A DNA stretch of 64,000 nucleotides. It comes from a virus (Duplodnaviria; Caudoviricetes). How positions within the stretch are numbered: position 1 is the stretch's first letter; each line of letters opens with the position of its first letter. The stretch lies in the IMG/VR virus record IMGVR_UViG_2908446538_000001, positions 9,053 through 73,052 of that record. One strand, 5' to 3'. The position numbers and the translations under genes were made by a program. The notes under the pieces are model-generated. The model ran no database searches, was not told where the DNA came from, and saw only the letters and a program-made list of their open reading frames with translations. This document shows, in pieces, positions 28,204 through 46,111 of this stretch.

Positions 28204-28206
28204 CCC

Positions 28207-30259: not shown

Positions 30260-31130
30260 GAGCGATATTAGCACAGCTGTATCCAATGTCATCCCCTTCA
30301 AGTTCGGCAAACAACAGGTCCGCACGCTGCTGATCGACGATCAACCTTGGTTCGTGGCCAACGATGTTTCTGCTGCGCTTCAGTACGGCGAAGCGTCGGC
30401 GATGACTCGCAATCTGGACGACGACGAAAAGGGTCTGTCTATTGTGCAGACCCTTGGCGGTGATCAGGAGATGCTGGTCATAAACGAATCCGGCCTTTAC
30501 TCGGCGATCCTGCGCAGTCGCAAGGCCGAAGCCAAGCGCTTTAAGAAGTGGGTCACTGCTGAGGTTCTTCCGGCGATCCGCAAGCACGGTCGATATGAGG
30601 ACCAGGGCAAGATGGCTACACTCATGGACGAGCTTATCGGCATGAGCGAGCTGAATGTCATCAAAGGCTTGATCCGCGACAAGTCTAAGGCTGTTTCAGC
30701 TGATCAGCGCCAAGGTTTTCAGCTGGTGATGCACAATCGCCTGCACACCCGCTTCAATGTTCCACGCACTGAGCTGATCCCTGCTGACCAATTCGATCAA
30801 GCCTGCAACTTCATTGGCAGCTATGCACTTGAAGGCGAGTACCTGCCCAAGACAGAGCTGGTCAGCAATACGAATGCACTGTCGGACAAAGAGCTCTACA
30901 ACGTATTTTTCCTGATGCACCACTTCTTGGCGCTGAAGAGGGTTTACGACGAGTACCAGCTTTATAGCGCGCTCAGCATGCTCGGCTCTCAGGCTGGCGC
31001 TGACATGATTGACCACTTCCGCGACCCGATGGTGGCCGTTTCCACTCTGAAGCAACGACTCCCGGACATGGAGGCAGCAGCAGTTCGTATGGGGATGGAG
31101 CCTGGTTTTGTGATGAGGATGGCGGCATGA
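30258..31130 (+). CDS. BRO-N antirepressor (ant)
   Basis: PWFVANDV...INESGLYSAILRSRKAEAKRFKKWVTAEVLPAIRKHG. Confidence 0.92.
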   Translation: MSDISTAVSNVIPFKFGKQQVRTLLIDDQPWFVANDVSAALQYGEASAMTRNLDDDEKGLSIVQTLGGDQEMLVINESGLYSAILRSRKAEAKRFKKWVTAEVLPAIRKHGRYEDQGKMATLMDELIGMSELNVIKGLIRDKSKAVSADQRQGFQLVMHNRLHTRFNVPRTELIPADQFDQACNFIGSYALEGEYLPKTELVSNTNALSDKELYNVFFLMHHFLALKRVYDEYQLYSALSMLGSQAGADMIDHFRDPMVAVSTLKQRLPDMEAAAVRMGMEPGFVMRMAA

Positions 31131-31345
31131 ACTTCACACTCAAAGCTGGCGGTCGCGCTCTGATCCTTTCCCCGGAGCTGCCAAATCTGGTCGGCCGCTC
31201 TGGCCAGCTGATTCGCAAGGTCGACGAAAATTGGCTGATGCTGGTCGAGGGCAAGCGCTACTCGGTCAGCGAGAAAAGTCTGATGCCTCTGGACGGCTTC
31301 AATCCTGGCGCTCCAAGCGCAATGTGTGCGGAGGTGGCGGCATGA
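31127..31345 (+). CDS. Small hypothetical protein
   Basis: ATGA-coupled to ant and to KilA-N gene. Confidence 0.65.
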   Translation: MNFTLKAGGRALILSPELPNLVGRSGQLIRKVDENWLMLVEGKRYSVSEKSLMPLDGFNPGAPSAMCAEVAA

Positions 31346-31854
31346 ATACAGGAATTATTCCGTTCCACTACGAGGGGCAGGCCGTCAGCTTCAATAGTGA
31401 CGGCTGGATAAATGCCACTGAAGTGGCGGCGCGTTACGGGAAGAAGCCAATCAAGTGGCTAGAGCTGGCCAGCACGAAAAACTACATGGCGGCGCTTTCT
31501 CGGCACCTCGGGTTTGATGTCCGCAATTCGGACTTCAAAATGGTCGAGGCGTCCCGGGTTCGTGGTCGCGCCGGTACTTGGCTGCATCCAAAGCTTGCGG
31601 TTGCGTTTGCCCGATGGCTGGATGACGACTTTGCGGTCTGGGCTGACCTTCATATTGATGCGCTCCTGCGTGGCGAACTCAACGAAAAGCAACAATTTGA
31701 CCGGGCATGCAAGGCCCTGAACGACGCTCAGAGCATTGCCAGCCTCAGCGGAAAAGAGCTTTCAAAGTTTCGGTGGAAAAAACCGAAGCTTGTGCACGAC
31801 GTTGATTACTGGCGAGACCAATTGCAGCTCACGCTCGGCCTCGACGCCGCATAG
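31342..31854 (+). CDS. KilA-N domain protein
   Basis: DGWINATEVAARYGKKP..WL...GTWLHPKLAVAFARWL. Confidence 0.9.
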   Translation: MNTGIIPFHYEGQAVSFNSDGWINATEVAARYGKKPIKWLELASTKNYMAALSRHLGFDVRNSDFKMVEASRVRGRAGTWLHPKLAVAFARWLDDDFAVWADLHIDALLRGELNEKQQFDRACKALNDAQSIASLSGKELSKFRWKKPKLVHDVDYWRDQLQLTLGLDAA

Positions 31855-31949
31855 CCTCCCGCGAACCCGAAGAACCCCGCACATGCGGGGCTTTCGTGTT
31901 GCTCCCTTGTTGGTGATAAAGTCCCGCGATATCTCAACGAGGGAACGAT

Positions 31950-32438
31950 ATGAAAATGTTCGTGGGGGCTTTGGCGCTCGTAGCGCTGGCAGGGTGTGGT
32001 GACCAAGGGCCTTGGGATGGGCCTGTTGGCACTAAAATGGGGGTTACAACTTCTCAGCTGGAGAAATATGTCGCCCTGTCAAAAGATGGGGGCGCCGATC
32101 CCCTGGGGCGAACGACCTACTTTTCTCCGCAAGCGCCAAAAAACGAGGCAGGCGCTGATAGGTATTCATATTTAATCGGTGGAAAATCTGGGTTGTGCGA
32201 GGTCGGCCAGTGGTTTCAGAGCATTAACTCTACAAACTCCGACGTTGCAAAGTCGCTTGCAGATAAGTACGGGGCGCCAAACAAGGAGGCTGCGCCAAGC
32301 TGGGGCGTGTCATGGACGGCTGGCGAACATAAGCTTGACCATGACCTTGAGTCCATCAGGATCAAGTTCAGCGGTGAAGAACCCCGTATCTCTGCCTATG
32401 TGAAATACACGTACAAGAACCTGAAAGACTGCAAATAA
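31950..32438 (+). CDS. Lipoprotein moron (superinfection-exclusion candidate)
   Basis: Lipobox LAGC after hydrophobic signal; flanked by terminators. Confidence 0.75.
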   Translation: MKMFVGALALVALAGCGDQGPWDGPVGTKMGVTTSQLEKYVALSKDGGADPLGRTTYFSPQAPKNEAGADRYSYLIGGKSGLCEVGQWFQSINSTNSDVAKSLADKYGAPNKEAAPSWGVSWTAGEHKLDHDLESIRIKFSGEEPRISAYVKYTYKNLKDCK

Positions 32439-32495
32439 ATCTAATTCTGCAAAGAGCCCGCCTAGAGCGGGTTTTTTATTGCCCGGAGAAAACTG

Positions 32496-35400
32496 ATGAG
32501 CACGAACTTCGCCTCGCTGGGCATTTCTGTCGAGTCTTCGCAGGCTGCAAAGGCTGCTGACGATCTGGACAAGTTGGTTGATTCGGCAGTTGATGCCGAG
32601 AAGGCGATTGATGACCTTGGCAAAACTGGCGAAGGATTGGCCAATACCGGAAAGAAGATCACTCAGGCAGAAAATGAGGTAGCCCAGGGTGTCGAGAAGT
32701 CTACGGCCGCGATAGACCGCAAATCTGGTGCAAGCCGCAAAGCAGCCGACAGCGCTGTGGCTGAGATCAACGTGATCGCCCAGCTTGATCGGGCCATGAC
32801 CGGCAATATCACCAGTATGGAATCCCTGATGCAGGCTGAGGGCCTGCTTGAGCGCGCCAAGAAAGGCGGATTGGTCACGGCTGAGGAGCAGATCAAGTAT
32901 CAGGAGCAGTTGGGCAAAGCGTTCGACAAAATAGAGAAGGCGGAAGCCAAGGAAACAGCCCAAAAGCAGCGCCTGATTGACGCAGAAAACCGACAGATTG
33001 AGGCGCTGAAACGCACCGTCAATGGAATTGACCCGGTAACCGCAAAGCTGGCAAAGCTTGAGGCGCAGGAGAAGGCAGCGCACGAAGCGTTCCGTGTTGG
33101 AGCAATTGATGTCGAGGCCTACAACGCCGCCCTGGCGAAGGTCGGAAAAGATCGAGCGGGCGTTACCGAAGTAGGCGGAGCCTTCGACAAGCTGAAGCTC
33201 GGCACTCGGCAAGCCCAAGAAAATGTCATGCAGCTCAGCAATGCCATTCAGTCGGGCGATTGGGGCAGTGGAGCGCGGGCAATTGCGCAGTTAGGCGCCG
33301 GCGCAGGCGAGTCGGCGGGGCGAATGATTTCCTTGGCTGCCCCTGTTGCTCTGGTGACTGCTGCCATCGGCACACTAGCAGCTGCCTACTTGCAGGGCGT
33401 TGATAGAGCAGAAAAATTCAACAACGCGCTTATTGTTAGTGGTGGGGCTGCGGGCAAGACAACTGCGCAGTTAACTGCAATGTCGCTAGCGCTTGGGAAG
33501 GGGGGCAACCTCACTCAGGCGTCAGAGGCTCTTCTCGCAGTCGCAAGTTCTGGAGAACTCACAGGCAGTACTTTTGATTCCGTTGCGCGCGCCGCCACCG
33601 AGCTTTCGGTGGCCACAGGGCGGAGCTCTGGGGAAATCGCCAAGCAGATGGTCGGCAGTAAGGGGGACGTTGCTGCACTCGCAGCTGAGTACAACCGCCA
33701 ATACCACTTCATGAGCAGCGAAACTTACTCGCACATCAAGGTTCTGCAGGAGCAGGGCGATGAAATGGGGGCGTTGGAGCTTCTCACTACTCAGCTTGCC
33801 GACTCAATGGCTAAACGGAACAAGGATATTGAGGACTCGGCTCGCGGTGTCGTCGGTGCGTGGCGCGATGCGAAGAAAGCGTTCAGTGACTACTGGGGGG
33901 AGTTTACGAGCCGTGCAGGCGCAGATAAGGATACGTTTACTCTGCAAGTTAAGCAGGGACAGCTCGAAGACGTTAAGGCCCTGCCTGAAAGCAATCTCCG
34001 AACAAAAGCAATTGCGAACCTTGAGCAAGAGATATCGCTCATCCAGCAGCGTATCGGCGCAAAGCAGAAAGACGCCGAGCAGGATGCCAAGACTGACGAA
34101 AAAACTCAGAAAGGCATTGATGCGGAGCGTGACCTTGAAGTTATTCGCAAGGCTGCCTACACAAACAAGCAAAAGCGAGACAAGGAAGAGGAAAAGTATC
34201 TTCAGAAGATCGCTGACCTGCGCGAGGCGAACCCAAAAAGCCCGCTGCTCGATCAGAAACTGATTGAGCGAGACCTGGACAATATCCGCAACAAGTACAA
34301 AGACCCGAAGGCAGCCTCAACCCAAGTCGATCTGACCAGCTTCAACAACGCCAAGAACAACCTCTCCGATATAGTCAATGAATACCGGAACGCCCAGAAG
34401 GAACTGGAGGCCCAGCAGAAAGCCGGCGTGGTATCGCTCTCGGACTATGCGAAGCAGCGTTCGGCACTGATCAATCAGGAAAAGGACGATGTCACCGCGG
34501 CGTACCAGGCCGAGATTGATGCACTGGAAGCGGCCAAGGCCAAGAAAGGCACGACGGCGGCCCAGAGCATCCAGCTCGACCAGAAGATCGCCGATGCTCG
34601 CACTGGAATGGTCAAAGCGCAAAAGGACGCCGACAGTCAACTGACGATCATCGCCACAAGCGAGAAGGGCCGACTTGAGCAGCTGACGGCCGCCTCAGAG
34701 GCGTACGTCAACCAGTTGGAACGCCAGCGGGCCGCACTGGAAGCCGCTGGCTCCCGCGCAGCAAACGGGCTGGGCCTGGGAGACCGGCAAGCGGCACTGC
34801 AAGCGAGCCTCGACGCAACCACGGACAAGTTCAACGACGAGCGGGCCAAGCTGCTGGATCGCCGCAAGACCGCGCCTGACAAGTACAGCCAGGAAGACTA
34901 CATGCGCGACCTGGCCAGTCTTGAGGATGCGGAAAGGAAGTACCGCGACACTGTGGTCGACAACTACGACAAGATGTCGGAGGCCCAGGGTGATTGGCGT
35001 AGCGGGGCCTCATCGGCTTTCCAGAACTATCTGCAGTCTGCCAACGATGTGGCTGGCCAGACCAAGAGCCTGTTCACGAATGCTTTTTCCAGCATGGAAG
35101 ACGCGGTCGCGAATTTTGCTGTAACCGGCAAATTGTCGTTCTCCGATTTCACCAAATCGATCATCGCCGATATGGCGCGGATCGCGACTCGACAAGCTGC
35201 CTCTGGTTTGCTTTCGAGCATCGCCGGAAGTGCGCTTGGGGCGTACTTCGGTGGCGGTGCGGGTGCTGGCGCTACCAGCTTCGGGTCAGACATTGGTGGT
35301 GCAATCACTGCCAATGCCAAGGGCGGTGTGTACGACTCGCCAAGCTTGTCCAGCTTCAGCAACCAGGTGCACGACAAGCCGCAGATGTTCGCCTTCGCGA

Positions 35401-35714
35401 AGGGCGCGGGCATCTTCGCCGAAGCCGGGCCGGAGGCGATCATGCCGCTGACCAGGACGGCTGGCGGTGAGCTTGGGGTGCGGGCGCTGGGTGGCGGTGG
35501 GGGCGGGGCGGGCGGCGGGAATACCGACTCCAAGATGGAGGTCACCATCAACATCAATCGAGATGGATCTGGCGATGCGACTGCAGATACAGCAATGGGC
35601 CAGAAGCTGGCCCCTCAGTTCCTCGCCATGATCCGAGGTGAGATCGCAGCGAATGAACGCAGAACGTTGAGCCCCAGCGGGGGCGCAACGTGGAGAGCAA
35701 TCAACGGGAGATAA
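32496..35714 (+). CDS. Tail tape measure protein
   Basis: 1072 aa Ala/Gln-rich helical; lambda-type C-terminal ANAKGG...GIFAEAGPEAIMPL. Confidence 0.95.
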   Translation: MSTNFASLGISVESSQAAKAADDLDKLVDSAVDAEKAIDDLGKTGEGLANTGKKITQAENEVAQGVEKSTAAIDRKSGASRKAADSAVAEINVIAQLDRAMTGNITSMESLMQAEGLLERAKKGGLVTAEEQIKYQEQLGKAFDKIEKAEAKETAQKQRLIDAENRQIEALKRTVNGIDPVTAKLAKLEAQEKAAHEAFRVGAIDVEAYNAALAKVGKDRAGVTEVGGAFDKLKLGTRQAQENVMQLSNAIQSGDWGSGARAIAQLGAGAGESAGRMISLAAPVALVTAAIGTLAAAYLQGVDRAEKFNNALIVSGGAAGKTTAQLTAMSLALGKGGNLTQASEALLAVASSGELTGSTFDSVARAATELSVATGRSSGEIAKQMVGSKGDVAALAAEYNRQYHFMSSETYSHIKVLQEQGDEMGALELLTTQLADSMAKRNKDIEDSARGVVGAWRDAKKAFSDYWGEFTSRAGADKDTFTLQVKQGQLEDVKALPESNLRTKAIANLEQEISLIQQRIGAKQKDAEQDAKTDEKTQKGIDAERDLEVIRKAAYTNKQKRDKEEEKYLQKIADLREANPKSPLLDQKLIERDLDNIRNKYKDPKAASTQVDLTSFNNAKNNLSDIVNEYRNAQKELEAQQKAGVVSLSDYAKQRSALINQEKDDVTAAYQAEIDALEAAKAKKGTTAAQSIQLDQKIADARTGMVKAQKDADSQLTIIATSEKGRLEQLTAASEAYVNQLERQRAALEAAGSRAANGLGLGDRQAALQASLDATTDKFNDERAKLLDRRKTAPDKYSQEDYMRDLASLEDAERKYRDTVVDNYDKMSEAQGDWRSGASSAFQNYLQSANDVAGQTKSLFTNAFSSMEDAVANFAVTGKLSFSDFTKSIIADMARIATRQAASGLLSSIAGSALGAYFGGGAGAGATSFGSDIGGAITANAKGGVYDSPSLSSFSNQVHDKPQMFAFAKGAGIFAEAGPEAIMPLTRTAGGELGVRALGGGGGGAGGGNTDSKMEVTININRDGSGDATADTAMGQKLAPQFLAMIRGEIAANERRTLSPSGGATWRAINGR

Positions 35715-35734
35715 GAAGCGGAAATGATTCGCCG

Positions 35735-35956
35735 TTAAATTTCGGTCAGGGATGACCGGACCTTATCAATCACAAGTTGCTCAAGCTGGCGATAGGTCAA
35801 ATCTTTGGCGCCTTCATGCTCGAAAGTCACCCCGAAAGTGCCACCGGCCTGCCCCTCTGCCATCTCCAGCGAAATTTGTACCTTCCCGCCGATGCTGGTT
35901 TTCCCTGCGTCCGGGGTGTCTTCGTAGACGCTTACTTCTGCCAGTTTCATTTTCAT
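35735..35956 (-). CDS. Small antisense moron between tape measure and gpM
   Basis: 73 aa ORF with AAGGA RBS. Confidence 0.55.
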   Translation of the reverse strand: MKMKLAEVSVYEDTPDAGKTSIGGKVQISLEMAEGQAGGTFGVTFEHEGAKDLTYRQLEQLVIDKVRSSLTEI

Positions 35957-36005
35957 GTAATTACCCATTTCCTTGGTCAAAAAAACATTCTACCCCGGAG
36001 CCATC

Positions 36006-36344
36006 ATGGCGATCGAGACATTCACCTGGGCCACCCAGCACGGGGAGGCGCCCGATATTACCTATCGGGTGCGCACCTCGCAGTTCGGGGACGGCTACAA
36101 GCAAGAGGTCGGGGACGGGATCAACAACAAAGTCGATTCCTACCCGATCACCCACACGGGCGGACAGGCGAGAGCGCTGGAAATTATGGCGTTCTTCGAC
36201 CGTCATAAGGGTGCCAAAGCCTTTCTCTGGACAACCCCGCTTGGCCAGCTTGGCCTGTTCACCTGCAAAAACCCAACCCCTACGCCTATGGGCGGGGGAG
36301 TATTCAAATTGACGGCGACGTTCGAGCGCGCTTTCCACCCGTAA
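36006..36344 (+). CDS. Minor tail protein M (distal tail)
   Basis: FGDGY.QEVGDGINN...FFDRHKGAKAFLWTTP. Confidence 0.92.
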   Translation: MAIETFTWATQHGEAPDITYRVRTSQFGDGYKQEVGDGINNKVDSYPITHTGGQARALEIMAFFDRHKGAKAFLWTTPLGQLGLFTCKNPTPTPMGGGVFKLTATFERAFHP

Positions 36345-36354
36345 AGGTCAATCC

Positions 36355-37104
36355 ATGTCGCTGATCAACGCTATCCAGACTCTTGAGCCTGGCAATGAAG
36401 TCATGCTGTTCGAATTGGACGGCAGCGATTACGGCGCCGATGTTCTGCGCTTCCACGGGCACGCAATACCGCATACCCCTGCGGAACTGATCGCCGCCGG
36501 CGGTGACGCCGATCAGCTGCCGGCGAAGTCGATCTGGTGGAAGGGCGAAGAGTACGGCGCCTGGCCCATGCAGTACGAGGGCAGCGAGGCGAACGGCGAC
36601 GGCACTGCGGTAAGGCCCAAGCTGTCGGTCGGTAACGTGAACGGGCGCATCACCGCGCTGTGCCTGGCCTTCGAGGATCTGCTCGAGTTCAAACTGACAA
36701 TTCGCAACACGCTGGCCGAGTTTCTCGACGCGGTGAACTTCGAAGGCGGCAACCCCACGGCCGATCCCACTCAAGAATCGATCGAGGTCTGGTATGTAGA
36801 CCAGAAGGCCAACGAGGACGGCGAGACGGTCAGTTGGGACTTGGCCAGCCCGGGCGATGTCGGCGGCGAGACGATCGGCAGGCAGATGACCACGCTATGC
36901 CACTGGTGCCTCACCGGTGGCTACCGTGGCCCGAACTGTGGATACACCGGCCCATACGTCACCAAGGACGGCGTCGTCACCGACAACCCAGAACTGGACG
37001 TGTGCGACGCCACTCTGGGCAAGGGCTGTATTCCGCGTTTCGGCGAGGGCAATGCCTACCCGTTCGGCGGTTTTCCCGCCGTTTCCTTGATCGCTCGGAG
37101 CTGA
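36355..37104 (+). CDS. Minor tail protein L
   Basis: LCHWC...YRGPNCGYTG...DVC...LGKGC.PRFG...FGGFP Fe-S cysteines. Confidence 0.95.
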   Translation: MSLINAIQTLEPGNEVMLFELDGSDYGADVLRFHGHAIPHTPAELIAAGGDADQLPAKSIWWKGEEYGAWPMQYEGSEANGDGTAVRPKLSVGNVNGRITALCLAFEDLLEFKLTIRNTLAEFLDAVNFEGGNPTADPTQESIEVWYVDQKANEDGETVSWDLASPGDVGGETIGRQMTTLCHWCLTGGYRGPNCGYTGPYVTKDGVVTDNPELDVCDATLGKGCIPRFGEGNAYPFGGFPAVSLIARS

Positions 37105-37106
37105 CC

Positions 37107-37862
37107 ATGCGCAAACACATCATTGCGGCCATTCAGGCGCATGCGGCGGCCGAGTACCCGAAGGAGTGCTGTGGGTTGGTGCTGGCCGTGGGCCGGGCGC
37201 AGAAGTACTTCCCGTGCCGTAACATCGCAACCGAGCCCAACGAAGAGTTCCGGCTTGAGCCAGAGGATTACGCCGCGGCGGAAGACCAGGGCCAGGTGAT
37301 CGGTATCGTGCATTCGCATCCGGACGCCACCAGCAGGCCGTCATCGCGCGACCTGGCGATGTGCGAGGCTACGGCCTTGCCCTGGCACATTCTGTCATGG
37401 CCTGAAGGGGATTTAAGGACGATCACGCCGACGGGCAGCACGCCGCTGCTCAAGCGCCCGTTCGTACACGGCGCCTGGGACTGCTGGCAGGTCTGCGCGG
37501 ATTGGTATCAGCGTGAATGGGGGCTCCAGTTTGAAGCTTTCCAGCGCGCCGATGGCTGGTGGGAGAGTGCAGACAGCACAAGCCTTTATGAATCGAACTA
37601 CGCCGCCGCCGGATTCGAGCAGGTCGACAGCCCGCGGCGAGGCGACATGATCGTAATGGAGGTAGGCCGCACGGCTCACCCGAACCACGCAGGGATCTAT
37701 CTGGGAACTGACCCGTTGCTTCCCGGTGAAGATTCCGGAGTGTTCGGGCCTGGTCCGTTCGTACTGCACCACCTGTATGGCCGTCCGTCCGAGGTGTTCG
37801 TCTACGGCGGTCCGTGGCTCCAGCGCACCCGCTTAATTCTTCGACACAAGGAGGCCCGATGA
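37107..37862 (+). CDS. Tail assembly protein K (JAB + NlpC/P60)
   Basis: IVHSHPD JAB motif; DCWQVCADWY and NHAGIY. Confidence 0.95.
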   Translation: MRKHIIAAIQAHAAAEYPKECCGLVLAVGRAQKYFPCRNIATEPNEEFRLEPEDYAAAEDQGQVIGIVHSHPDATSRPSSRDLAMCEATALPWHILSWPEGDLRTITPTGSTPLLKRPFVHGAWDCWQVCADWYQREWGLQFEAFQRADGWWESADSTSLYESNYAAAGFEQVDSPRRGDMIVMEVGRTAHPNHAGIYLGTDPLLPGEDSGVFGPGPFVLHHLYGRPSEVFVYGGPWLQRTRLILRHKEAR

Positions 37863-38440
37863 GCGCCATCGTTTATTCGCCGATGACCACAATCAAACTG
37901 TCCTGCTCACTGGCTCAGAAGTTCGGCCGGCTGCACCGCCGCCAAGTTTCATCTGGCGACACATGGGAGGTTTTCCGGGCTCTGAAGGCGACTATCCAAG
38001 GTTTCGACGAAGAAATTCGGCGCCTTGACCGACTCGGCATGCGATTTGCCATCTTTCGCAACCGAAAAAATGTCGGTGTCGATGAGTTCGGCATGGGCGG
38101 TGCCAGGGAGATACGCATCGTTCCGGTGGTTGAGGGGTCTAAGCGTGCTGGGCTGCTCCAGACAATCATAGGTGTGGTGCTGATCGCGGCGTCATATTTT
38201 ACCGGGGGTTCTACTCTGGCTTCTGGCATCGCGCTGACTGCGGGAGGCGTTATCCAGATGCTCAGCCCTCAAGCCGCAGGCCTCAAGCAAAGCGCCTCTC
38301 CGGAAAACATGCCCAGCTATGCATTTGGCTCGGCAAAGAACACCACGGCGAGCGGCAACCCCGTCCCCATCTGCATCGGTGATCGCCGGTGGGGCGGGGC
38401 AATCATCTCGGCATCGATCTATGCCGAGGACAAGACATAA
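37859..38440 (+). CDS. Tail assembly protein I
   Basis: IRIVPVVEGSK...SYAFGSAKNTTASGNPVPICIG. Confidence 0.92.
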   Translation: MSAIVYSPMTTIKLSCSLAQKFGRLHRRQVSSGDTWEVFRALKATIQGFDEEIRRLDRLGMRFAIFRNRKNVGVDEFGMGGAREIRIVPVVEGSKRAGLLQTIIGVVLIAASYFTGGSTLASGIALTAGGVIQMLSPQAAGLKQSASPENMPSYAFGSAKNTTASGNPVPICIGDRRWGGAIISASIYAEDKT

Positions 38441-38497
38441 ACGCAACGCAGCGAACAGGCCGCCCAAGAGGCGGTTTTTTATTGCCTGGAGGAAAGC

Positions 38498-41400
38498 ATG
38501 GGCGCAGCACAGAAGCTGGATATACACGGCGCCAAAGGTGGCGAGAGCAAGCCGAAGTCTCCGGTAGAGTCACCCGACAGCCTGCGCTCGACCAACGTGG
38601 CCAAAATCCTGATCGCCGTGGGCGAGGGTGAATTCGACGGAACACCCACTGCGCGCGATATCTTCCTCGACAACACCCCAATCCAGGATGCCAGCGGCAA
38701 CTACAACTTCACCAACGTGAAGTGGGACTGGCGTCCGGGTTCTGTCGAGCAGACCTACATCCCGGGTATACCATCGGTCGACAACGAGACCTCGCTGAAT
38801 ATAGAGCTGCGTAGCGGAACGCCGTGGGTTCAGTCGCTGACCAACCTGCAGCTGTCGGCGGCACGTATTCGCCTGGCTACGCCGCGGCTTGCGAGCCAGG
38901 ACAACGAAGGCAATATTGGTGGTTACAGCATCCAGTACGCGGTCGACGTGGCCACCGATGGTGGGGCCTATCAGGAGGTATTGGTTGGCGCTATTACAGG
39001 CAAAGCCACCACTCGCTACGAAAAGTCCATGCGTATCGATTTGCCGCCGGCCACCAGTGGATGGCTGATTCGCGTTCGCCGCATTACCCCAAACCAGAAC
39101 ACCGACAAGATTGCAGATAGCCTGTTCATCGCCGGCTACACCCAGGTGATCGATGCAAAGCTGCGCTACCCGAACACCGCGCTACTTTTTGTGCAATTCG
39201 ACGCCGAGCAGTTCACCAAAATCCCGGCGGTCACCGTGAAGTGCAAGGCCCGCCGCTGGCAGGTGCCGAGCAACTACGACCCGGTGGCCCGCACGTACTC
39301 TGGCGCCTGGGATGGCACCATGAAGGAGGCGTGGACGAATAACCCCGCCTGGGTCACTTACGGTATCTGCACTCAGGACCGCTTCGGCCTTGGTAAGCGC
39401 ATAAAACCGTGGATGGTCGACAAGTGGGAGCTGTACCGCATCGCGCAGTACTGCGACCAGTTGGTGTCGAACGGTGCCGACGGCGTTGAGCCGCGTTTCC
39501 TGTGCGACATGAACCTGCAGGGCAAAGCCGATGCATGGTCTCTGCTGCGTGATATCGCCGGCATTTATCGCGGCATGACGTACTGGGCTCAAGGTCAACT
39601 GGTCATGCAGGCAGATATGCCGCGCTCGCAAGATATCGACTACGTCTTTACCCGCTCCAATGTGATCGACGGGAAGATCTCGTACGGCAGCGCCTCGGCG
39701 AAAACGCGTTTCACTCGGTGCCTGGTCAGCTATGACAATCCGCTGAACAACTACGACACCGACGTCACCGTCTATTCCGACCTGCCGCTGCAGCGCCGTT
39801 TGGGCGACAAGCCAACTGAAATCAGTGCCATCGGCTGCACTCGGGCATCTGAGGCCCAGCGCCGCGCTAAATGGCTGGTGCTGAGCAACAACCAGGACCG
39901 CACCATCAGCTTCAGGACCGGTATGGAAGGCCGTATCCCGCTGCCAGGGTTCATCATCCCCGTTGCCGACTCGTTGCTGGCTGGTCGGGAGATCGGCGGG
40001 CGCATTGCGGCGGCGTCAGGGAAGGTCATTACCCTGGACCGTGACACCCTGGCCAAGGCGGGTGACCGGTTGGTGGTCAACCTTCCCGGCGGGCGGGCAG
40101 AAGGCCGCACCGTGGAAAGCGTGAGCGATCGCAACGTAACCGTGACCATTGCTTACAGCGAGGCACCAGCTGCACAGCTTCAGTGGGCAATCGACGCTGA
40201 CGACCTGGCAATCCCTCTATATAGAGTGATGAGGACTGCACGGACGCCAGGGGGCGATTACGAAATCAGCGCCTTGCAGTACGAGCCAAGCAAGTTCGCC
40301 AGCATCGACACTGGCGCACGCCTCGAAGACCGCCCGATCAGCGTCATACCAATCACGGTGGTGCCGCCGCCGGAAAGCGTAACCGTCACGTCGAACGTGT
40401 CGATCGACCAGGGCCTGGCCATCAGCACCATGAACATCTCGTGGCCAGCCGTCACCGGCGCGGTCGCCTACGACGTGGAGTGGCGCAAGGACAGCGGCAA
40501 CTGGATCAAGGTGCAACGCACCGGCTCCACCAGCCTTGATGTCACCGGGATTTACGCGGGCGCCTATCTGGCCCGCGTGCGCTCGGTGAGCGCCTTCGAA
40601 ATCTCGTCGATCTGGAAGAGCTCAAACCTGACCAACTTGGAAGGCAAGGTTGGCCTGCCGCCGGCGGTGTCTTCCCTGACCACAACCAGCGAATTGTTTG
40701 GGGTCGGCATCAAGTGGGGCTTCCCACCTGGTGCAGAGGACACCCAGCGAACCGAGGTGTGGTATGGGCCTGCAAACGATCTGGGAGCCGCTACCAAGCT
40801 GGCCGACCTGGCTTACCCGCAGGCTGAATACCGCATGCAGCAGCTGCAGGCGGGCGCAACCCTGTTCTTCTGGGCGCGCTTGGTGGACCGTACCGGCAAC
40901 GTCGGGCCGTTCTATCCGGTTGTCGACGGGGTTATGGGGCAGGCCAGCTCTGAGGCTGGGCCAATCCTCGATCTGCTCGCCGGCAAGGTCACGAAAACTG
41001 AGCTGGGCAAGGATCTTCTGGATGAGCTTGAAGGCCTGCAGGACCAGATCGACTCGCTTGATGGTTTGAAGGGCTACGATCCAGAAGCCACCTACCTGAA
41101 AGGCCAGATGGTGGTGGAGGGTGGGCGAATCTATCAGGCCTTCGTAGATGTTCCGGTAGGCACACCACCGCCGAACGGCGCTTTCTGGCTGGATGTTGGC
41201 CAGTCTGTCGAGACTGCGAACGGCCTGGCCCAGCAAGTGGCAACCAACAAAGCGGACATCACGGAGCTCGACGGCGTCGTCACGGCCCAGGCCAGCATGA
41301 CCAACGCATTGCGCGCCTCGGCGCGCGATGACAGTGGCAGCGGTGCGAAGGCTGATGCACTGAGAGGATACGCCAGCACTGTCGCTATCGTCGAAGAGAG

Positions 41401-41956
41401 CAAGGTCAGGGCTACCGCCATCGAGGCCGAAGCGACCAAGACAACGAAGCTTGAAGCGACTGTTGGACAGAACACTTCTGCCATTCAGCAAACGTCCTCA
41501 GCGTTGGCCAACACCAATGGCCGGCTGCAGACATTGTGGTCAGTGAAGATGGAGACCACCGCCGGTGGACAGAGGTACGCGGCCTCGTTCGGTCTCGGTC
41601 TTCAGGTCGATCCATCTGGTGTGTCGTCACAGTTCGTGGTCAGGGCTGACACGTTCATGCTGTTGAACTTGAATAACGGCACGCCGGTGTCACCGTTCTC
41701 TGTGTCTGGCGGGCAAACCTTTGTCAGTTCGGCGTTTATTCAGGATGGCACCATCACCAACGCTAAGATCGGCGAATACATCAGCTCGACCAACTACATC
41801 GCTGGCCAGCAGGGCTGGATTCTCCGGAAGGATGGATCGTTCGAAATCAACGGGATTGTTCCTGGTCAAGGGCGCTCCATGATGACGAATCGCTCTATGC
41901 GGTTTTGGGATAACAATAACATGAAGAGAGTGCAGCTAGGAGATCAAACCGAATGA
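38498..41956 (+). CDS. Tail tip / central fibre protein J
   Basis: GEGEF start, WTNNPAW, FN3-like repeats, C-terminal DUF1983 region. Confidence 0.95.
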   Translation: MGAAQKLDIHGAKGGESKPKSPVESPDSLRSTNVAKILIAVGEGEFDGTPTARDIFLDNTPIQDASGNYNFTNVKWDWRPGSVEQTYIPGIPSVDNETSLNIELRSGTPWVQSLTNLQLSAARIRLATPRLASQDNEGNIGGYSIQYAVDVATDGGAYQEVLVGAITGKATTRYEKSMRIDLPPATSGWLIRVRRITPNQNTDKIADSLFIAGYTQVIDAKLRYPNTALLFVQFDAEQFTKIPAVTVKCKARRWQVPSNYDPVARTYSGAWDGTMKEAWTNNPAWVTYGICTQDRFGLGKRIKPWMVDKWELYRIAQYCDQLVSNGADGVEPRFLCDMNLQGKADAWSLLRDIAGIYRGMTYWAQGQLVMQADMPRSQDIDYVFTRSNVIDGKISYGSASAKTRFTRCLVSYDNPLNNYDTDVTVYSDLPLQRRLGDKPTEISAIGCTRASEAQRRAKWLVLSNNQDRTISFRTGMEGRIPLPGFIIPVADSLLAGREIGGRIAAASGKVITLDRDTLAKAGDRLVVNLPGGRAEGRTVESVSDRNVTVTIAYSEAPAAQLQWAIDADDLAIPLYRVMRTARTPGGDYEISALQYEPSKFASIDTGARLEDRPISVIPITVVPPPESVTVTSNVSIDQGLAISTMNISWPAVTGAVAYDVEWRKDSGNWIKVQRTGSTSLDVTGIYAGAYLARVRSVSAFEISSIWKSSNLTNLEGKVGLPPAVSSLTTTSELFGVGIKWGFPPGAEDTQRTEVWYGPANDLGAATKLADLAYPQAEYRMQQLQAGATLFFWARLVDRTGNVGPFYPVVDGVMGQASSEAGPILDLLAGKVTKTELGKDLLDELEGLQDQIDSLDGLKGYDPEATYLKGQMVVEGGRIYQAFVDVPVGTPPPNGAFWLDVGQSVETANGLAQQVATNKADITELDGVVTAQASMTNALRASARDDSGSGAKADALRGYASTVAIVEESKVRATAIEAEATKTTKLEATVGQNTSAIQQTSSALANTNGRLQTLWSVKMETTAGGQRYAASFGLGLQVDPSGVSSQFVVRADTFMLLNLNNGTPVSPFSVSGGQTFVSSAFIQDGTITNAKIGEYISSTNYIAGQQGWILRKDGSFEINGIVPGQGRSMMTNRSMRFWDNNNMKRVQLGDQTE

Positions 41957-42282
41957 GTTCTGGATTGCGATTGTGGTCATCAACTGGGGCTCTTGAGTTT
42001 GATACCAGCACATCTACTTACAGAATCGTTCTTTCTGTGCTGGTTTCTTATGCGGGCGAACCAAGGAGTCAAAAAACTTTTTCCGTTCCTGGGTGTAATC
42101 CAAGTAATTCGATCTGCTTTCTTTTGCCGGTTAATAATGATGCGTCGCAAACCGCTACCAATAGGCAACTTGAGTGCCAAATTGGTGAGGGTATTGCCTA
42201 CGTGAGGAACTATCTTGCGTCTAACCCTAATGACTCTATCTCCCAGGCAACAATGCGATTAATGGTTGCGAGGTGGGCTTGA
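41953..42282 (+). CDS. Tail-tip associated protein
   Basis: MSSGLRLWSSTGALEFD start typical of genes after J; low GC. Confidence 0.7.
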   Translation: MSSGLRLWSSTGALEFDTSTSTYRIVLSVLVSYAGEPRSQKTFSVPGCNPSNSICFLLPVNNDASQTATNRQLECQIGEGIAYVRNYLASNPNDSISQATMRLMVARWA

Positions 42283-42929
42283 TGAGCTATGGGCTAACAG
42301 TTATCAATGACTCAAGTGTAGTGTCTATTGATTCGGAATACGCACGGCTTTGCGTATTCCATAAGGGGACTTACACCGCGAACGTAGGCATAACGTTTCA
42401 GAACGTTGTAACTACCCAGGAACCTCCGCTTGTTTTTATAAGGCCCCAGAATAACGGTGCATTCATACAGCTGGGCTTGACTCTAGGCGGTTCCGCCGGT
42501 GCTTGGGCCGGAGCCACTGTTGTTTCGGGGCAGGCTCACTCTGGGGAAATATTTGTAGCGGCATTTTCATCAAAACCCATAACTTCATATGGATTGCGGA
42601 TGTGGGATGCTGACTCAAAGCAGATATTTGACTCTGGAACTCAAGCTGTAATTTTTACTCGCGCGGTTCAAAACTGGAGTTATACACATACTACCTATAG
42701 CTCTCAGGGGTTGCCGACAAATTGGTACGCTATTACTTTGAACTACGCGCTTGGTGATTACCTAATGATAAATAACGCGAGAATGCCCATGATGGGGGCA
42801 AATAACGAGACCCGCTCCGGGGGACTTAGGTATGATTTTGCATCTTCCGTTTTGAGATTTAGTGTTACAACGGTTTCAAATCCATTTTACTTCTCGCTCC
42901 AGGCTATTTTCGGAAAGATTGCAGTCTGA
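42282..42929 (+). CDS. Tail-tip associated protein
   Basis: Two YGL-(T/R)...D repeats; low GC. Confidence 0.7.
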   Translation: MSYGLTVINDSSVVSIDSEYARLCVFHKGTYTANVGITFQNVVTTQEPPLVFIRPQNNGAFIQLGLTLGGSAGAWAGATVVSGQAHSGEIFVAAFSSKPITSYGLRMWDADSKQIFDSGTQAVIFTRAVQNWSYTHTTYSSQGLPTNWYAITLNYALGDYLMINNARMPMMGANNETRSGGLRYDFASSVLRFSVTTVSNPFYFSLQAIFGKIAV

Positions 42930-42999
42930 CATATGACTCTGTAATAAATTGAAGTTTTATACGCCGCCTTGATCGGTTTTTTATTGCTTGGAGAAAGTT

Positions 43000-43728
43000 A
43001 TGGTTTGGCAACGAGCAGGAACTGTTTCTGTGCAAAATGGCAGCACTACAGTCATCGGCACGAACGTAGATTTCGCCGCAAGTAGCAGGAACGGCGACTC
43101 ATTCGTTGGCCCAGACGGGGCGACTTATGAGTTGGCGAACGTCGCAAGCTCCACCGTTATCTCGATCCTGCCAGAGTACAAAGGGCCAACTGTAGCCGGC
43201 GCTGCCTACGCCATCATGCCGGTGCAGGGCTACGACAAAATGCTGTCGGATGCCTTCAATAACTTGAATAACCAGTTCGGTTCGAAGCTGGCGGCGCTGG
43301 GCACCACGGGCAACTACGACATTCTGCCTGTCAGCAAAGGCGGTACGGGTCGCGCATCGGTCGGCACGGCAATTGACTCGGATGTTACGACCGGGGCCAT
43401 ATCCGGTACTGCGGGGCAACTTCTTAAAGTCGGTGACTTCGGTATCGGTTCTACCTCGGTTCCTTATATAGCAAACGTGAACGAGATCTCAAAGGCAGGG
43501 ATTTATAAGTTCGACTCTAATACCCTGGCTCTTCCGTCGGGATTCGGCACCGTCACTCATTGCGCTTATGACGCATCCAGCAGCAACTGGACGCAGCAGG
43601 CCTTCTATATGAACTCTTCTGTGTCCTATTTCAGGCAGTCAATCAACGGATCAATAAGCGATTGGGCGAAGGTTTACACCACCGCCAATACCACCCGAAT
43701 GGCCGACGGTACACTCAAGGCGATCTGA
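43000..43728 (+). CDS. Tail fibre protein
   Basis: W.RAGTVSV.NGS.TV.G N-terminus, LPVSKGGTG repeat, VYTTANTT.MADGTLKAI end. Confidence 0.85.
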   Translation: MVWQRAGTVSVQNGSTTVIGTNVDFAASSRNGDSFVGPDGATYELANVASSTVISILPEYKGPTVAGAAYAIMPVQGYDKMLSDAFNNLNNQFGSKLAALGTTGNYDILPVSKGGTGRASVGTAIDSDVTTGAISGTAGQLLKVGDFGIGSTSVPYIANVNEISKAGIYKFDSNTLALPSGFGTVTHCAYDASSSNWTQQAFYMNSSVSYFRQSINGSISDWAKVYTTANTTRMADGTLKAI

Positions 43729-43730
43729 TC

Positions 43731-44117
43731 ATGGCAAGAGCAGCTTTAAATATCGTCGGCAAGACCGGCGAGAAGTATTTCATGGACTCAATGGGCGGCA
43801 CCGACGTTGGTTGCTACCGCAAAGACGTAGGCGTGTATTGCGTCACCGGCAGCCAAGGCATGGTGCCTTATCCCCCTGAGGATGTGGGCTGGGGCTACAC
43901 ACTTCACCCATCCGAGAGCCGGGCAGAGGTGGAAACGGATTTTCAAGATGGCCTGCTCACCATTTATGTGACCATGCGCGGCGCGCCATACGACCTCAAG
44001 ACCATAATCACTTTGCACATTTTGGTGCCAGACTTGCCTGCGTCGCAGAATCCGCCAATCGTCAGCACCGCGTCAGCGGGAGATCCTCAGCCACTTGGCG
44101 ATACCGCTGAATCCTGA
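43731..44117 (+). CDS. Tail fibre-associated protein
   Basis: Directly follows fibre gene; GVYCVTG motif. Confidence 0.65.
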   Translation: MARAALNIVGKTGEKYFMDSMGGTDVGCYRKDVGVYCVTGSQGMVPYPPEDVGWGYTLHPSESRAEVETDFQDGLLTIYVTMRGAPYDLKTIITLHILVPDLPASQNPPIVSTASAGDPQPLGDTAES

Positions 44118-44173
44118 GAAACGCCAGAACACCACGGCCGCCTTGAGCGGTTTTTTTTCGCCTGGAGAAAAGC

Positions 44174-44599
44174 ATGCCTATCACCGAAACCCGTGGGGTG
44201 CGCAATAAGAACCCCGGCAACATCGACTACAGCCCGGCCAACCAGTGGCAAGGCCAGCTCAAGCCCGACCCGTCCATCGAGAAGCGCTTCGCCAGGTTTG
44301 ACACCGCCGAGAACGGTATCCGCGCCCTGGGCAAGGTGCTGCTGACGTACCAGCGCAAGCATGGCTTGAAGACCGTGGAGGCCATCATTGGCCGCTGGGC
44401 GCCGAGCGGGGAGAATGATACGGCCGCTTACGTCGGTGCCGTCGAAGCGAACACCGGTACCCGGCCAGGTGCCGAAGTCGACCTGACGCGGCCGGCGGTG
44501 ATGACCGGTTTCGTCAAGGCGATCATCCATCACGAAAACGCGGGGTATGCCTACCCTGATGCTGTGCTGGCTGAAGGCGTGCGGCGGGCGCTGGCATGA
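44174..44599 (+). CDS. Probable endolysin (RGVRNxNPGNI family)
   Basis: RNKNPGNI...F..AENGIRA...WAP..ENDT..Y...AII.HEN; coupled to Rz/Rz1. Confidence 0.65.
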   Translation: MPITETRGVRNKNPGNIDYSPANQWQGQLKPDPSIEKRFARFDTAENGIRALGKVLLTYQRKHGLKTVEAIIGRWAPSGENDTAAYVGAVEANTGTRPGAEVDLTRPAVMTGFVKAIIHHENAGYAYPDAVLAEGVRRALA

Positions 44600-45126
44600 T
44601 GCCTGCGCAGAAACTGGTCGGGCTGGCTGTGTTGGTTATGGTGCTGATGGCCGGTGCCTGCGGCGTGACCTGGCAGGTTCAGGACTGGCGCCTGGGGAAG
44701 AAGCTCGCCGAGCAGCTCACGGAGCAGGGCATTGCGCACCAGAAAGATCTGGACGCAATCACCGGCGAGGCCTGGCGTCAGCAGGCCGCCGAGCAAGACA
44801 AGCGGCTGGCCACTGAGCAGCAGCTCGCCACCGTGGACCAACAACACACCAAGGAATTATCCGATGCCCAGCGCAATCAGGCTCTGCTGCGTGATCACCT
44901 TGCTACTACTGAACTGCGGCTGTCAGTCCTTATCGACGCCACGGATTCAGCCAGTGGCTGCGACGTGCCTGCCGCCCCCGGCGCCGCAGGCGTGGTTCAT
45001 GCAGCCCGTCGAGCCCAACTTGACCCAGCGCATGCTCAAAGAATTATCGCCATCACCGACGATGGGGATAACGCCGTGATCGCGCTGCGTGCGTGCCAGG
45101 CGTACGTCAGGGCTGTGGCTCGGTGA
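44596..45126 (+). CDS. Rz / i-spanin
   Basis: N-terminal TM, coiled coil, RIIAITDDGDNAVIALRACQAYV end. Confidence 0.88.
   Translation: MMPAQKLVGLAVLVMVLMAGACGVTWQVQDWRLGKKLAEQLTEQGIAHQKDLDAITGEAWRQQAAEQDKRLATEQQLATVDQQHTKELSDAQRNQALLRDHLATTELRLSVLIDATDSASGCDVPAAPGAAGVVHAARRAQLDPAHAQRIIAITDDGDNAVIALRACQAYVRAVAR
44864..45079 (+). CDS. Rz1 / o-spanin lipoprotein embedded in Rz
   Basis: +1 frame inside Rz; lipobox-like LNCGC; Pro-rich CLPPPAPQAWFM. Confidence 0.8.
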   Translation: MPSAIRLCCVITLLLLNCGCQSLSTPRIQPVAATCLPPPAPQAWFMQPVEPNLTQRMLKELSPSPTMGITP

Positions 45127-45460
45127 CGTTCTTCAACTCCATTAGCAGCCGCTGATTCTCCCTGAGCAGATAGTCGCGCTGTTCGGCAACGAGTTTCATG
45201 CTGAGGATGGCGGGCTCGGAGCATTTCTCTTTGAGCGCGTCGATCTCGACCAGGGCAGCCGTCAGGGCTTCTTCCGCTTTGGCCTTGCCGGTGGCCAGCG
45301 CGTCATTCATCTGCACCAGCCCGGCGATATTCTTCCGCGCCTTGCTCAGCAGCGCCTGGGCTTGGGTCAGCTCGTCCTCCAACAGGGCGCACTGGTGTTT
45401 ATACATTTCCAGGGGCGTAGGGCAGCCGAGCCACGCGGAGGTGTCTTCGTCGATGTTCAT
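45107..45460 (-). CDS. Coiled-coil phage protein with upstream SOS box
   Basis: MNIDEDTSAWLGCPTPLEMY...; converges on Rz. Confidence 0.75.
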   Translation of the reverse strand: MNIDEDTSAWLGCPTPLEMYKHQCALLEDELTQAQALLSKARKNIAGLVQMNDALATGKAKAEEALTAALVEIDALKEKCSEPAILSMKLVAEQRDYLLRENQRLLMELKNVTEPQP

Positions 45461-45478
45461 GGTGAGGTAATCCGAATG

Positions 45479-45494
45479 CTGTATGCACATACAG
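45479..45494. promoter_or_regulatory. LexA (SOS) box
   Basis: CTGTATGCACATACAG is a perfect CTGT-N8-ACAG, 19 bp upstream of the 45460 start. Confidence 0.85.
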
Positions 45495-45625
45495 TAGTCG
45501 AGGCGTTACGGATTTGGGAGTGGTGTTCGTCGGCAGGACGCCGGGGATGGTGTATTTCTGTCTAATACTACCTGTAGCTAACTCGATTTCATTGGCCTTA
45601 AAGCCTCAAAAATCGCGGTATGGTT

Positions 45626-45736
45626 TTAGACATAGGAACCGCGAAAGCCACGCTCTACATGGCTTTCGCATCGATCAAGCCCATACTGCTGCATCATTGG
45701 CGTGTGGGAAGACAGATCGGACGTGTTTTTACTCAT
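45626..45736 (-). pseudogene. mutS: 5' fragment of mutS (18 native codons) fused to prophage sequence; right attachment junction near 45683
   Basis: MSKNTSDLSSHTPMMQQY is the Pseudomonas MutS N-terminus; it diverges (GLDRC...) and stops after 36 aa; orientation fits mutS divergent from the tailocin-cinA-recA side. Confidence 0.85.
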
Positions 45737-46111
45737 TGGATAGTAGGCAAATTCGTTGAAAGTGATGGGGCAAAGGGGGCGCTTGGTCCAGTGTCGATCA
45801 GTTGCGCAGCGCAGGTTTCCAAACGACGCAGGCCGATGTGGGAGCTGTCGAGCCCTAGCGAGGCTGCGAAGGGATCGCCGCGCTGTACCGGCAGGCCGCA
45901 GCCCCTGCATCGCTGAAGTTCGAAAGCTCAACATCGTGCCCAATCGTGGTCGCTTAACTGATCGGCATCGGGCGCTTGGCCCAGCATTTTTGCGATGGGC
46001 GCAAGGTTAACACGCGAAGTCGGGGCTTCGCAGGTCGCAAACGGTTAGGTAAAACACAAAAAAGGGCGGTGCATTTAACTAAATGCGCCGCCCCTTTCTT
46101 TCTTCCGGCTG

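What the first reader, a model, noticed from the sequence alone, without database searches (positions are those of the whole stretch)
45626..45736. Prophage integrated inside the start of mutS: possible reversible mutator switch
Seen: native promoter region and MSKNTSDLSSHTPMMQQY run into phage DNA and stop after 36 aa; an 8-bp inverted repeat GAAAGCCA-N9-TGGCTTTC lies just inside the junction. Known: MutS continues with W-R/K-L-K and is essential for mismatch repair; a Streptococcus element toggles mismatch repair by integration/excision. Inference: either the phage supplies a replacement promoter and N-terminus at attL, putting mutS under phage control, or the lysogen is a mutator until excision.
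Basis: partly seen in the sequence, partly recalled or inferred. Interest (0 to 1): 0.8.

Follow-up and report, generated by a model that had tools for sequence, protein, structure and literature searches.

The report
Prophage in mutS with replacement start
A complete 57-kb Pseudomonas prophage sits inside the first codons of the mismatch-repair gene mutS but carries its own replacement gene start, so mutS stays intact; this behaviour was published in 2017, so it is a clean new example and not a new phenomenon.

Summary
On the minus strand at 45736-45626, the native mutS promoter region and first 18 codons (MSKNTSDLSSHTPMMQQY) run into phage DNA and stop after 36 codons. The inverted repeat is real, and is in fact 10 bp long.

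The rest of mutS lies 11 kb left of the window, at the other end of a 56,952-bp lambdoid prophage. There, a tyrosine integrase gene is followed after 51 nt by a phage-borne start (MTDLSSHTPMMQQY). This start is fused in frame to an intact 859-aa MutS with all five MutS domains. It is the only mutS in the genome.

A 17-bp core (CCAATGATGCAGCAGTA) is identical and in the same codon phase at both ends, so excision should restore the native gene without a scar. The packaged phage phiAH14a carries the same mutS-mimicking attP.

All 11 related integrases found in 400 Pseudomonas species were checked. Ten lie in a locus that also holds mutS with an element-type start. For the eleventh the locus was too short, but its mutS is intact 2.2 kb away.

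This is the class described by Chu et al. 2017 (mBio), who list P. fluorescens-group strains. This scan has also reported it before on other genomes. The "mutator until excision" reading is not supported. Which promoter now drives mutS remains untested.

The parts
45626..45736 (-). Orphaned native 5' end of mutS: 18 host codons (MSKNTSDLSSHTPMMQQY), then 18 phage-coded codons and a stop
   Evidence: native N-terminus confirmed in empty-site relatives
45684..45700 (-). attR core: 17 bp CCAATGATGCAGCAGTA (codons P-M-M-Q-Q-Y), identical to the attL core at G000:C1:1547207-1547223 (L002:3708-3724)
45641..45669 (.). Perfect 10-bp inverted repeat in the P' arm, 15 nt from the core. An inverted repeat recurs at the same position, with other sequences, in related attR/attP sites
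45559..45632 (.). P' arm with two copies of the arm-type 8-mer: ATTAGACA at 45559-45566 in the mutS direction, and TTTAGACA at 45625-45632 inverted. Two more copies lie in the P arm between the integrase stop and the new mutS start
   Evidence: 4 of 6 copies in 61 kb lie within 125 bp of the cores. Conserved in all related loci
45737..46100 (-). Native mutS upstream region, now uncoupled from the gene. It contains a REP-like repeat near 45822-45913
1..45683 (+). Right-hand 45.7 kb of the 56,952-bp prophage; the left 11.3 kb, with the integrase, lies outside the window in L002. Includes CI-like repressor 7510-8445(-), TerL 19077-20564, portal 20423-21979, major head 23863-24825, tape measure 32496-35714, tail tip J 38498-41956, endolysin 44174-44599 and Rz 44596-45126
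45107..45494 (-). Orphan 117-aa ORF (45107-45460) preceded by a LexA-box-like palindrome CTGTATGCACATACAG (45479-45494). It is an insertion relative to phiAH14a, between Rz and attP, and lies downstream of the orphaned host mutS promoter

Best explanation
A complete lambdoid temperate siphovirus related to Pseudomonas phages phiAH14a and PseuP_222 has integrated by tyrosine-integrase site-specific recombination into a 17-bp core. That core encodes the P-M-M-Q-Q-Y part of the conserved HTPMMQQY motif at the start of mutS. The phage attP carries, just downstream of int, a mimic of a Pseudomonas mutS start (ATG + T-D-L-S-S-H-T-P + core). Integration therefore swaps the host's first 12 codons and promoter for phage-borne ones and leaves a full-length, in-frame MutS that is 4 aa shorter (859 aa). 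The host promoter and first 18 codons are left as a 36-codon stub at attR. Excision within the identical cores would rebuild the native gene exactly.

Shown here: the anatomy, the reading frame, the intact domains, the attP in a free phage, and recurrence in other species.

Inferred: mutS in the lysogen is transcribed from a phage-side promoter in the roughly 100-nt P arm, or by read-through from int. The lysogen is therefore repair-proficient, with at most altered regulation.
For: - **Single mutS.** The genome has only one MutS_I match, 11 kb left of the window.
- **Intact gene.** L002:1169-3748(-) is an 859-aa ORF with MutS domains I-V.
- **Integrase next to it.** L002:3800-4789(-) matches PF00589 and ends 51 nt before the new ATG.
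- **Cores.** The 17-bp cores are identical and in the same phase.
- **Free phage.** The phiAH14a genome (83% nt identity over int) has an intact attP: int stop, arm sites, ATG-ACC-GAC-CTC-TCC-AGC-CAC-ACC, the core, then the P' arm.
- **Recurrence.** 11 of 400 Pseudomonas species carry a related integrase (59-97% identity). Ten of those loci also hold mutS with an element-type start.
- **Selection on the phage-borne codons.** They differ mostly at synonymous sites: CTT/CTC, TCA/TCC/TCT, CAC/CAT, ACT/ACC/ACG, CCA/CCG.
- **Other lysogens.** mutS has no stops in five other lysogens.
- **Empty sites.** Relatives with an empty attB have the native N-terminus.
- **Excision and induction genes.** A DUF4224 Xis-like ORF and a CI/S24 repressor are present, together with full packaging, head, tail and lysis modules.
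- **Published precedent.** Chu et al. 2017 describe the same class and show scar-free excision in P. putida F1.
Against: - No sigma-70 consensus promoter and no strong Shine-Dalgarno sequence was found between int and the new ATG. Expression of the chimeric mutS is therefore not demonstrated.
- In four related elements, a cargo gene convergent with int lies between int and the P arm. Int read-through therefore cannot be the general route.
- Nothing here measures mutation rate or excision in this strain.
- The integrase shows no significant similarity to the integrase-like protein of the E. coli 536 mutS element. Common descent with all of Chu's elements is therefore not shown.
Confidence: 0.87

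Rival explanations
1. Mutator lysogen: integration separates mutS from its only functional promoter, so the lysogen is mismatch-repair deficient until the prophage excises. This would be a SpyCIM1-like switch.
For: The native promoter is 57 kb away from the gene. No consensus promoter was found upstream of the new start.
Against: The phage carries a dedicated start codon and in-frame mutS codons that are kept at amino-acid level across diverged elements. mutS is full-length in six lysogenic species. No terminator was found between int and mutS. In V. splendidus, the integrated state is the repair-proficient one (PMC5296598).
Confidence: 0.07
2. Excision-scar hypermutator, as in Vibrio splendidus 12B01: excision removes 2 bp and frameshifts mutS, so that loss of the prophage creates the mutator.
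For: This mechanism is documented for one element of the class.
Against: The attL and attR cores are 17 bp, identical and in the same codon phase, so any crossover within them gives an in-frame native gene. The predicted attB matches the empty sites of relatives. Excision in P. putida F1, E. coli 536 and B. multivorans CF2 left no scar.
Confidence: 0.03
3. Fixed, no longer mobile prophage: the arrangement is a permanent re-heading of mutS with no switching at all.
For: No excision data exist for this strain. Some relatives show decayed or tandem arrangements at the same site: a truncated second integrase in G174 and an attP-like internal junction in G395.
Against: The element has an intact integrase, a DUF4224 Xis-like ORF, an S24 repressor, all virion and lysis modules, perfect cores and conserved arm sites. 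A close relative, phiAH14a, was induced with mitomycin C and packaged (abstract, PMC4936722).
Confidence: 0.1

Closest known systems
Mobile elements integrated in the HTPMMQQ motif of mutS (Chu et al. 2017, mBio 8:e02045-16, PMC5296598; V. splendidus 12B01, E. coli 536, P. putida F1, B. multivorans CF2; Table S2 lists P. fluorescens WH6, P. chlororaphis O6 and P. synxantha BG33R)
   Same: Same target motif. An orphaned host start lies upstream of the element. The element supplies a start fused in frame to mutS. An integrase sits at the mutS-proximal end. Some members are full prophages. Scar-free geometry, as in P. putida F1.
   Different: The integrase is co-oriented with mutS and only 51 nt upstream. 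It shows no significant similarity to the divergently oriented DUF4102 protein of the E. coli 536 element. No 2-bp offset like that of 12B01. Excision and mutation rate were not measured here.
Pseudomonas phage phiAH14a (KU708004; Dziewit and Radlinska 2016, PMC4936722)
   Same: 83% nt identity over int and the P arm. About 84% identity over 40% of the structural region. Same attP layout, with the mutS-mimicking start, the 17-bp core and the arm-type sites.
   Different: phiAH14a lacks the 117-aa ORF with a LexA-like box between Rz and attP. Its paper does not contain the words mutS, attP, attB or 'integration site'.
   Same: A mobile element at the 5' end of a mismatch-repair gene, which could in principle couple repair to excision.
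   Different: SpyCIM1 silences downstream repair genes while integrated. Here the element supplies a replacement start and the gene stays whole. This element is also a complete virion-encoding prophage.
Gene-restoring attP sites such as phage 21/e14 in icd, and tRNA-gene integrators (general knowledge)
   Same: attP carries a copy of the part of the target gene that integration displaces, so the gene is rebuilt.
   Different: Those restore 3' ends and keep the host promoter. Here the 5' end is replaced, so promoter and translation start must come from the phage.

Membership tests
mutS HTPMMQQ-integrating mobile elements (Chu et al. 2017) | Orphaned host-derived mutS start upstream of the element, matching the native start of related strains | tested here: met
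   The stub MSKNTSDLSSHTPMMQQY equals the native N-terminus in the empty-site relatives G005 and G007 and in the attR of four other lysogens.
mutS HTPMMQQ-integrating mobile elements (Chu et al. 2017) | Insertion point within the HTPMMQQ motif | tested here: met
   The shared core CCAATGATGCAGCAGTA encodes P-M-M-Q-Q-Y.
mutS HTPMMQQ-integrating mobile elements (Chu et al. 2017) | Element-supplied translation start giving an in-frame, full-length mutS | tested here: met
   MTDLSSHTPMMQQYWRLKN...; 859 aa; Pfam MutS_I to MutS_V all present.
mutS HTPMMQQ-integrating mobile elements (Chu et al. 2017) | Integrase gene at the mutS-proximal end of the element | tested here: met
   329-aa protein matching PF00589, ending 51 nt before the new ATG. 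Of its 11 relatives in 400 Pseudomonas species, 10 lie in a locus that also holds mutS with an element-type start. Not similar to the E. coli 536 protein.
mutS HTPMMQQ-integrating mobile elements (Chu et al. 2017) | Element-supplied promoter for mutS | tested here: inconclusive
   No sigma-70 consensus match and no terminator in L002:3500-5400. In four relatives a convergent cargo gene leaves only about 100 nt of conserved P arm upstream of mutS.
mutS HTPMMQQ-integrating mobile elements (Chu et al. 2017) | Excision to a circle that regenerates attB and attP | not testable with these tools
   Indirect support only: the identical 17-bp cores, and an intact matching attP in the packaged genome of phiAH14a.
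V. splendidus 12B01-type scar-forming switch | Crossover geometry that removes 2 bp from mutS on excision | tested here: not met
   The cores are identical and in phase, and the predicted attB equals the empty sites of relatives.
SpyCIM1-like repair-silencing island | Integration leaves the repair gene without a start or promoter of its own; the element lacks virion genes | tested here: not met
   A replacement start is present. Full head, tail and lysis modules are present.
Lambdoid temperate siphovirus (phiAH14a / PseuP_222 relatives) | Integrase plus Xis-like gene, CI-type S24 repressor, TerL, portal, major head, tape measure, J-type tail tip, endolysin and Rz | tested here: met
   80-84% nt identity over 40-48% of the structural region to PseuP_222 and phiAH14a.

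The most novel reading that the evidence does not exclude
The phage-side control region makes MutS levels in the lysogen differ from those of the native promoter. For example, MutS could be tied to int/early-region transcription or to SOS induction. At the same time, the orphaned host mutS promoter is re-used to transcribe the stub and the LexA-boxed 117-aa phage ORF behind it. The prophage would then tune host mutation rate and borrow a host promoter.
Probability: 0.15. Interest if true: 0.5.

Novelty: new member of a known kind. Interest (0 to 1): 0.25.

Why it matters
It shows that an apparently disrupted mismatch-repair gene in this genome is whole, so the strain should not be annotated as a mutS mutant or a mutator.

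It adds a well-resolved, complete-prophage example to the published class of mutS-targeting elements: core, four arm-type sites, Xis-like gene, and a matching attP in a packaged phage. It also identifies phiAH14a, an inducible and packaged phage, as a tractable member for testing whether such elements change mutS expression. That question was left open by Chu et al. 2017.

Tried and rejected
- **Second mutS or MutS_I copy in the genome:** none found.
- **Second core copy inside the window:** none; the partner lies outside it.
- **tRNA target:** no tRNA genes in the window.
- **Consensus promoter or terminator between int and mutS:** none found. Manual inspection of hexamers in the P arm gave only weak candidates (TAGTAT as -10, TTGTCA as -35, with no partner at the right spacing), so I make no promoter claim.
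- **Inverted repeat as an intrinsic terminator:** no U-tract follows it on either strand, and the terminator scan does not call it. It remains either a hairpin or a protein site.
- **attP mini-ORF (32 aa in phiAH14a and as reconstructed here) as a conserved peptide:** rejected, because the frame stops early in the G174 and G127 attR sites.
- **Class-wide survey with the integrase (400 Gammaproteobacteria):** only relatives of 26-43% identity (mostly about 33%) were found, and none has a mutS motif within 1.5 kb. The mutS-specific clade of this integrase was therefore seen only in Pseudomonas.
- **Similarity to the E. coli 536 element's integrase-like protein:** none.
- **Papers on phiAH14a and PseuP_222:** neither mentions mutS or att sites.

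Full report
**Observation**

The plus strand at 45626-45736 is the reverse complement of a short ORF. Read on the minus strand from 45736, it gives MSKNTSDLSSHTPMMQQY, then GLDRCESHVERGFRGSYV, then a stop, for 36 codons in all.

The first 18 residues are a genuine native MutS N-terminus. In relatives with an uninterrupted gene (G005/L029 and G007/L038), the same residues continue as WRLKNQHPDQLMFYR.

The inverted repeat is real and longer than reported: GCGAAAGCCA-N9-TGGCTTTCGC at 45641-45669. Perfect 10-bp stems of this kind give 11 hits at about 8 places in the window, against 0.8 hits expected in shuffles.

Everything to the left is phage. PHROGs and Pfam identify the following:
- Rz, 44596-45126
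- endolysin, 44174-44599
- J-type tail tip, 38498-41956
- tape measure, 32496-35714
- major head protein, 23863-24825
- portal, 20423-21979
- large terminase, 19077-20564

A CI-type HTH + S24 repressor lies at 7510-8445(-).

**Where the rest of mutS is**

The window is G000:C1:1558476-1622475. The genome holds a single MutS_I match, at 1546891-1547226(-), which is 11 kb left of the window.

In L002 (G000:C1:1543500-1558600):
- The ORF at 1169-3748(-) is 859 aa and carries MutS domains I to V.
- Directly upstream on the same strand is a 329-aa tyrosine integrase (PF00589) at 3800-4789(-).
- The integrase is preceded by a 64-aa DUF4224 ORF at 4800-4994(-), the usual position of an excisionase.
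- After the integrase stop come 51 nt, then ATG ACA GAC CTT TCA AGC CAC ACT CCA ATG ATG CAG CAG TAC TGG CGT CTG. This reads MTDLSSHTPMMQQYWRLKN.

**att sites**

Aligning the two junctions gives a 17-bp block, CCAATGATGCAGCAGTA, identical at both ends and in the same codon phase. It lies at G000 1547207-1547223 and 1604159-1604175, the latter being window 45684-45700. The element is therefore 56,952 bp from core to core.

A crossover anywhere in the core rebuilds the native 5' end joined to the body of mutS, in frame. The predicted attB matches the empty sites of relatives.

An 8-mer, (A/T)TTAGACA or AATAGACA, occurs six times in the 61 kb examined. Four of the copies lie within 125 bp of the cores:
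- two between the integrase stop and the new ATG (P arm);
- two in the P' arm, at window 45559-45566 and, inverted, at 45625-45632.

The same motifs are conserved in all related loci. I read them as arm-type integrase sites. This is an inference.

**Independent evidence that attP carries the mutS mimic**

The integrase region matches Pseudomonas phage phiAH14a (KU708004) at 83% nucleotide identity over 99% of a 1.2-kb query. phiAH14a is a prophage of an Antarctic Pseudomonas that was induced with mitomycin C, packaged and sequenced (PMC4936722).

In that free phage genome, the integrase stop is followed by the same arm motifs. Next come ATG ACC GAC CTC TCC AGC CAC ACC, the same core, and then a P' arm homologous to the phage side of our attR. 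The replacement start is therefore a standing feature of the phage, not something created after integration.

The phiAH14a paper does not contain the words mutS, attP, attB or "integration site".

The structural region of our prophage is 80-84% identical, over 40-48% of its length, to PseuP_222 and phiAH14a.

**Recurrence**

Among 400 Pseudomonas species genomes, 11 carry an integrase 59-97% identical to this one.

In ten of the 11 loci, the locus also holds mutS with an element-type start in frame. The starts are MTDLSSHTP, MDLSSHTP, MSSLSDHTP, MSDLSAHTP, MDVSAHTP and, in G174, MESLSSHTP. In G174 that start belongs to the P arm behind a truncated second integrase. The eleventh locus was too short to reach mutS, which is intact 2.2 kb away.

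The element-borne codons vary mainly at synonymous positions (Leu CTT/CTC, Ser TCA/TCC/TCT, His CAC/CAT, Thr ACT/ACC/ACG, Pro CCA/CCG). This argues for selection on their coding capacity.

In five complete lysogen genomes, mutS is full-length with no stops and is 88-98% identical to ours. Four of them have an attR with the same native stub 35-40 kb away.

The phage-borne N-terminus resembles the short N-terminus seen in other Pseudomonas lineages (MSDLSAHTP...). It is 4 aa shorter than this host's own.

**The inverted repeat**

At the same distance from the core, related P' arms carry inverted repeats of different sequence: GGCCGCG-N5-CGCGGCC in G395 and GCCACG-N5-CGTGGC in G205. phiAH14a, G245 and G174 have imperfect versions.

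No U-tract follows the repeat on either strand, and the terminator scan does not call it. It is probably a structural feature of the P' arm. It could be a hairpin that hinders transcripts crossing att (from int in the free phage, or from the orphaned host promoter in the lysogen), or it could be a protein site. I cannot decide between these.

The downstream reading frame of the stub is not conserved: it stops early in G174 and G127. The 18 phage-coded residues therefore have no evident meaning.

**Expression of the re-headed gene**

This is the open step. No sigma-70 consensus promoter and no intrinsic terminator were found from mutS codon 80 to beyond the Xis-like gene. In this strain, read-through from int is therefore possible.

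In four related elements (G293, G245, G112, G190), a 264-300-aa cargo gene convergent with int lies between int and the P arm. It leaves only about 100 nt of conserved P arm ahead of mutS. That argues that a promoter lies in the P arm, but I could not identify a convincing one.

**Comparison with the literature**

Chu et al. 2017 (PMC5296598) describe exactly this class:
- Mobile elements, some of them prophages, sit within the HTPMMQQ motif of mutS across Beta- and Gammaproteobacteria.
- The elements supply a new start and upstream region.
- Excision was shown by PCR in E. coli 536, P. putida F1 and B. multivorans CF2 without a scar.
- In V. splendidus 12B01, a 2-bp scar on excision creates a hypermutator.

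Their Table S2 lists P. fluorescens WH6, P. chlororaphis O6, P. synxantha BG33R and others.

I looked at the E. coli 536 locus directly. There, a DUF4102 integrase-like gene lies divergently, 220 nt upstream of a replacement start MSTPENFDAHTPMMQQY. It has no significant similarity to our integrase. More than one recombinase lineage therefore seems to use this site.

A class-wide survey with our integrase found only relatives of 26-43% identity (mostly about 33%), none of them next to mutS.

This scan has already reported the same phenomenon on other genomes, with the same verdict.

**Verdict**

The "replacement N-terminus at attL" alternative is right. The "mutator until excision" alternative is not supported at sequence level. 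The system is a new, well-resolved member of a known kind. The only untested part is how mutS is transcribed in the lysogen and whether its level differs from the native state.

Noticed in passing
window 47029-50465 (+): The two coupled genes (573 and 572 aa) between the mutS promoter region and the tailocin cluster match the PADLOC models OloA (E 3.6e-97) and OloB (E 3.9e-197). They are an Olokun-type anti-phage defence pair, not an uncharacterised system.
   Followed up: partly
window 45107-45494 (-): An orphan 117-aa ORF with no Pfam, PHROG or PADLOC hit lies behind a LexA-box-like palindrome, CTGTATGCACATACAG. It is absent from phiAH14a at this position. It lies antisense to the Rz end and downstream of the orphaned host mutS promoter. 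It may be an SOS-controlled moron or antirepressor.
   Followed up: partly
L002:8106-9269 (-), prophage early region outside the window: A 387-aa reverse transcriptase (Pfam RVT_1; PHROG 1423 E 8e-116; PADLOC generic RT E 4e-38, weaker matches to DRT classes). It may be a prophage-borne RT defence gene or a retron; the type was not resolved.
   Followed up: partly
L007, L008, L010, L012 (G293, G245, G112, G190), between int and the P arm: Related mutS-integrating elements carry a 264-300-aa cargo gene convergent with int, immediately upstream of the replacement mutS start. Its function was not examined.
   Followed up: no
L021 (G395) and L005 (G174): In G395 the distal junction has an element-type start (MSDLSAHTPMMQQ) joined to a P' arm, so it looks like an attP and suggests tandem elements in mutS. 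In G174 a truncated second integrase (178 aa) with its own different P arm sits between the full integrase and mutS, suggesting a remnant of an earlier element.
   Followed up: partly
L061:38976-40000 (E. coli 536, NC_008253): The published E. coli 536 mutS element ends in a 249-aa DUF4102 protein that is divergent from mutS, followed by a 220-nt intergenic region and the replacement start MSTPENFDAHTPMMQQY. It has no detectable similarity to the Pseudomonas integrase, so different recombinases appear to have converged on the same motif.
   Followed up: partly
window about 45822-45913: A segment of about 90 nt upstream of the native mutS start matches many dispersed places, on both strands, in related genomes. 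It appears to be a REP-like repeat.
   Followed up: no
window 46112-46780 (-): The long ORF contains a DUF3077 domain (E 2.8e-34) at residues 140-214. The real gene is probably shorter than the 222-aa frame listed.
   Followed up: no
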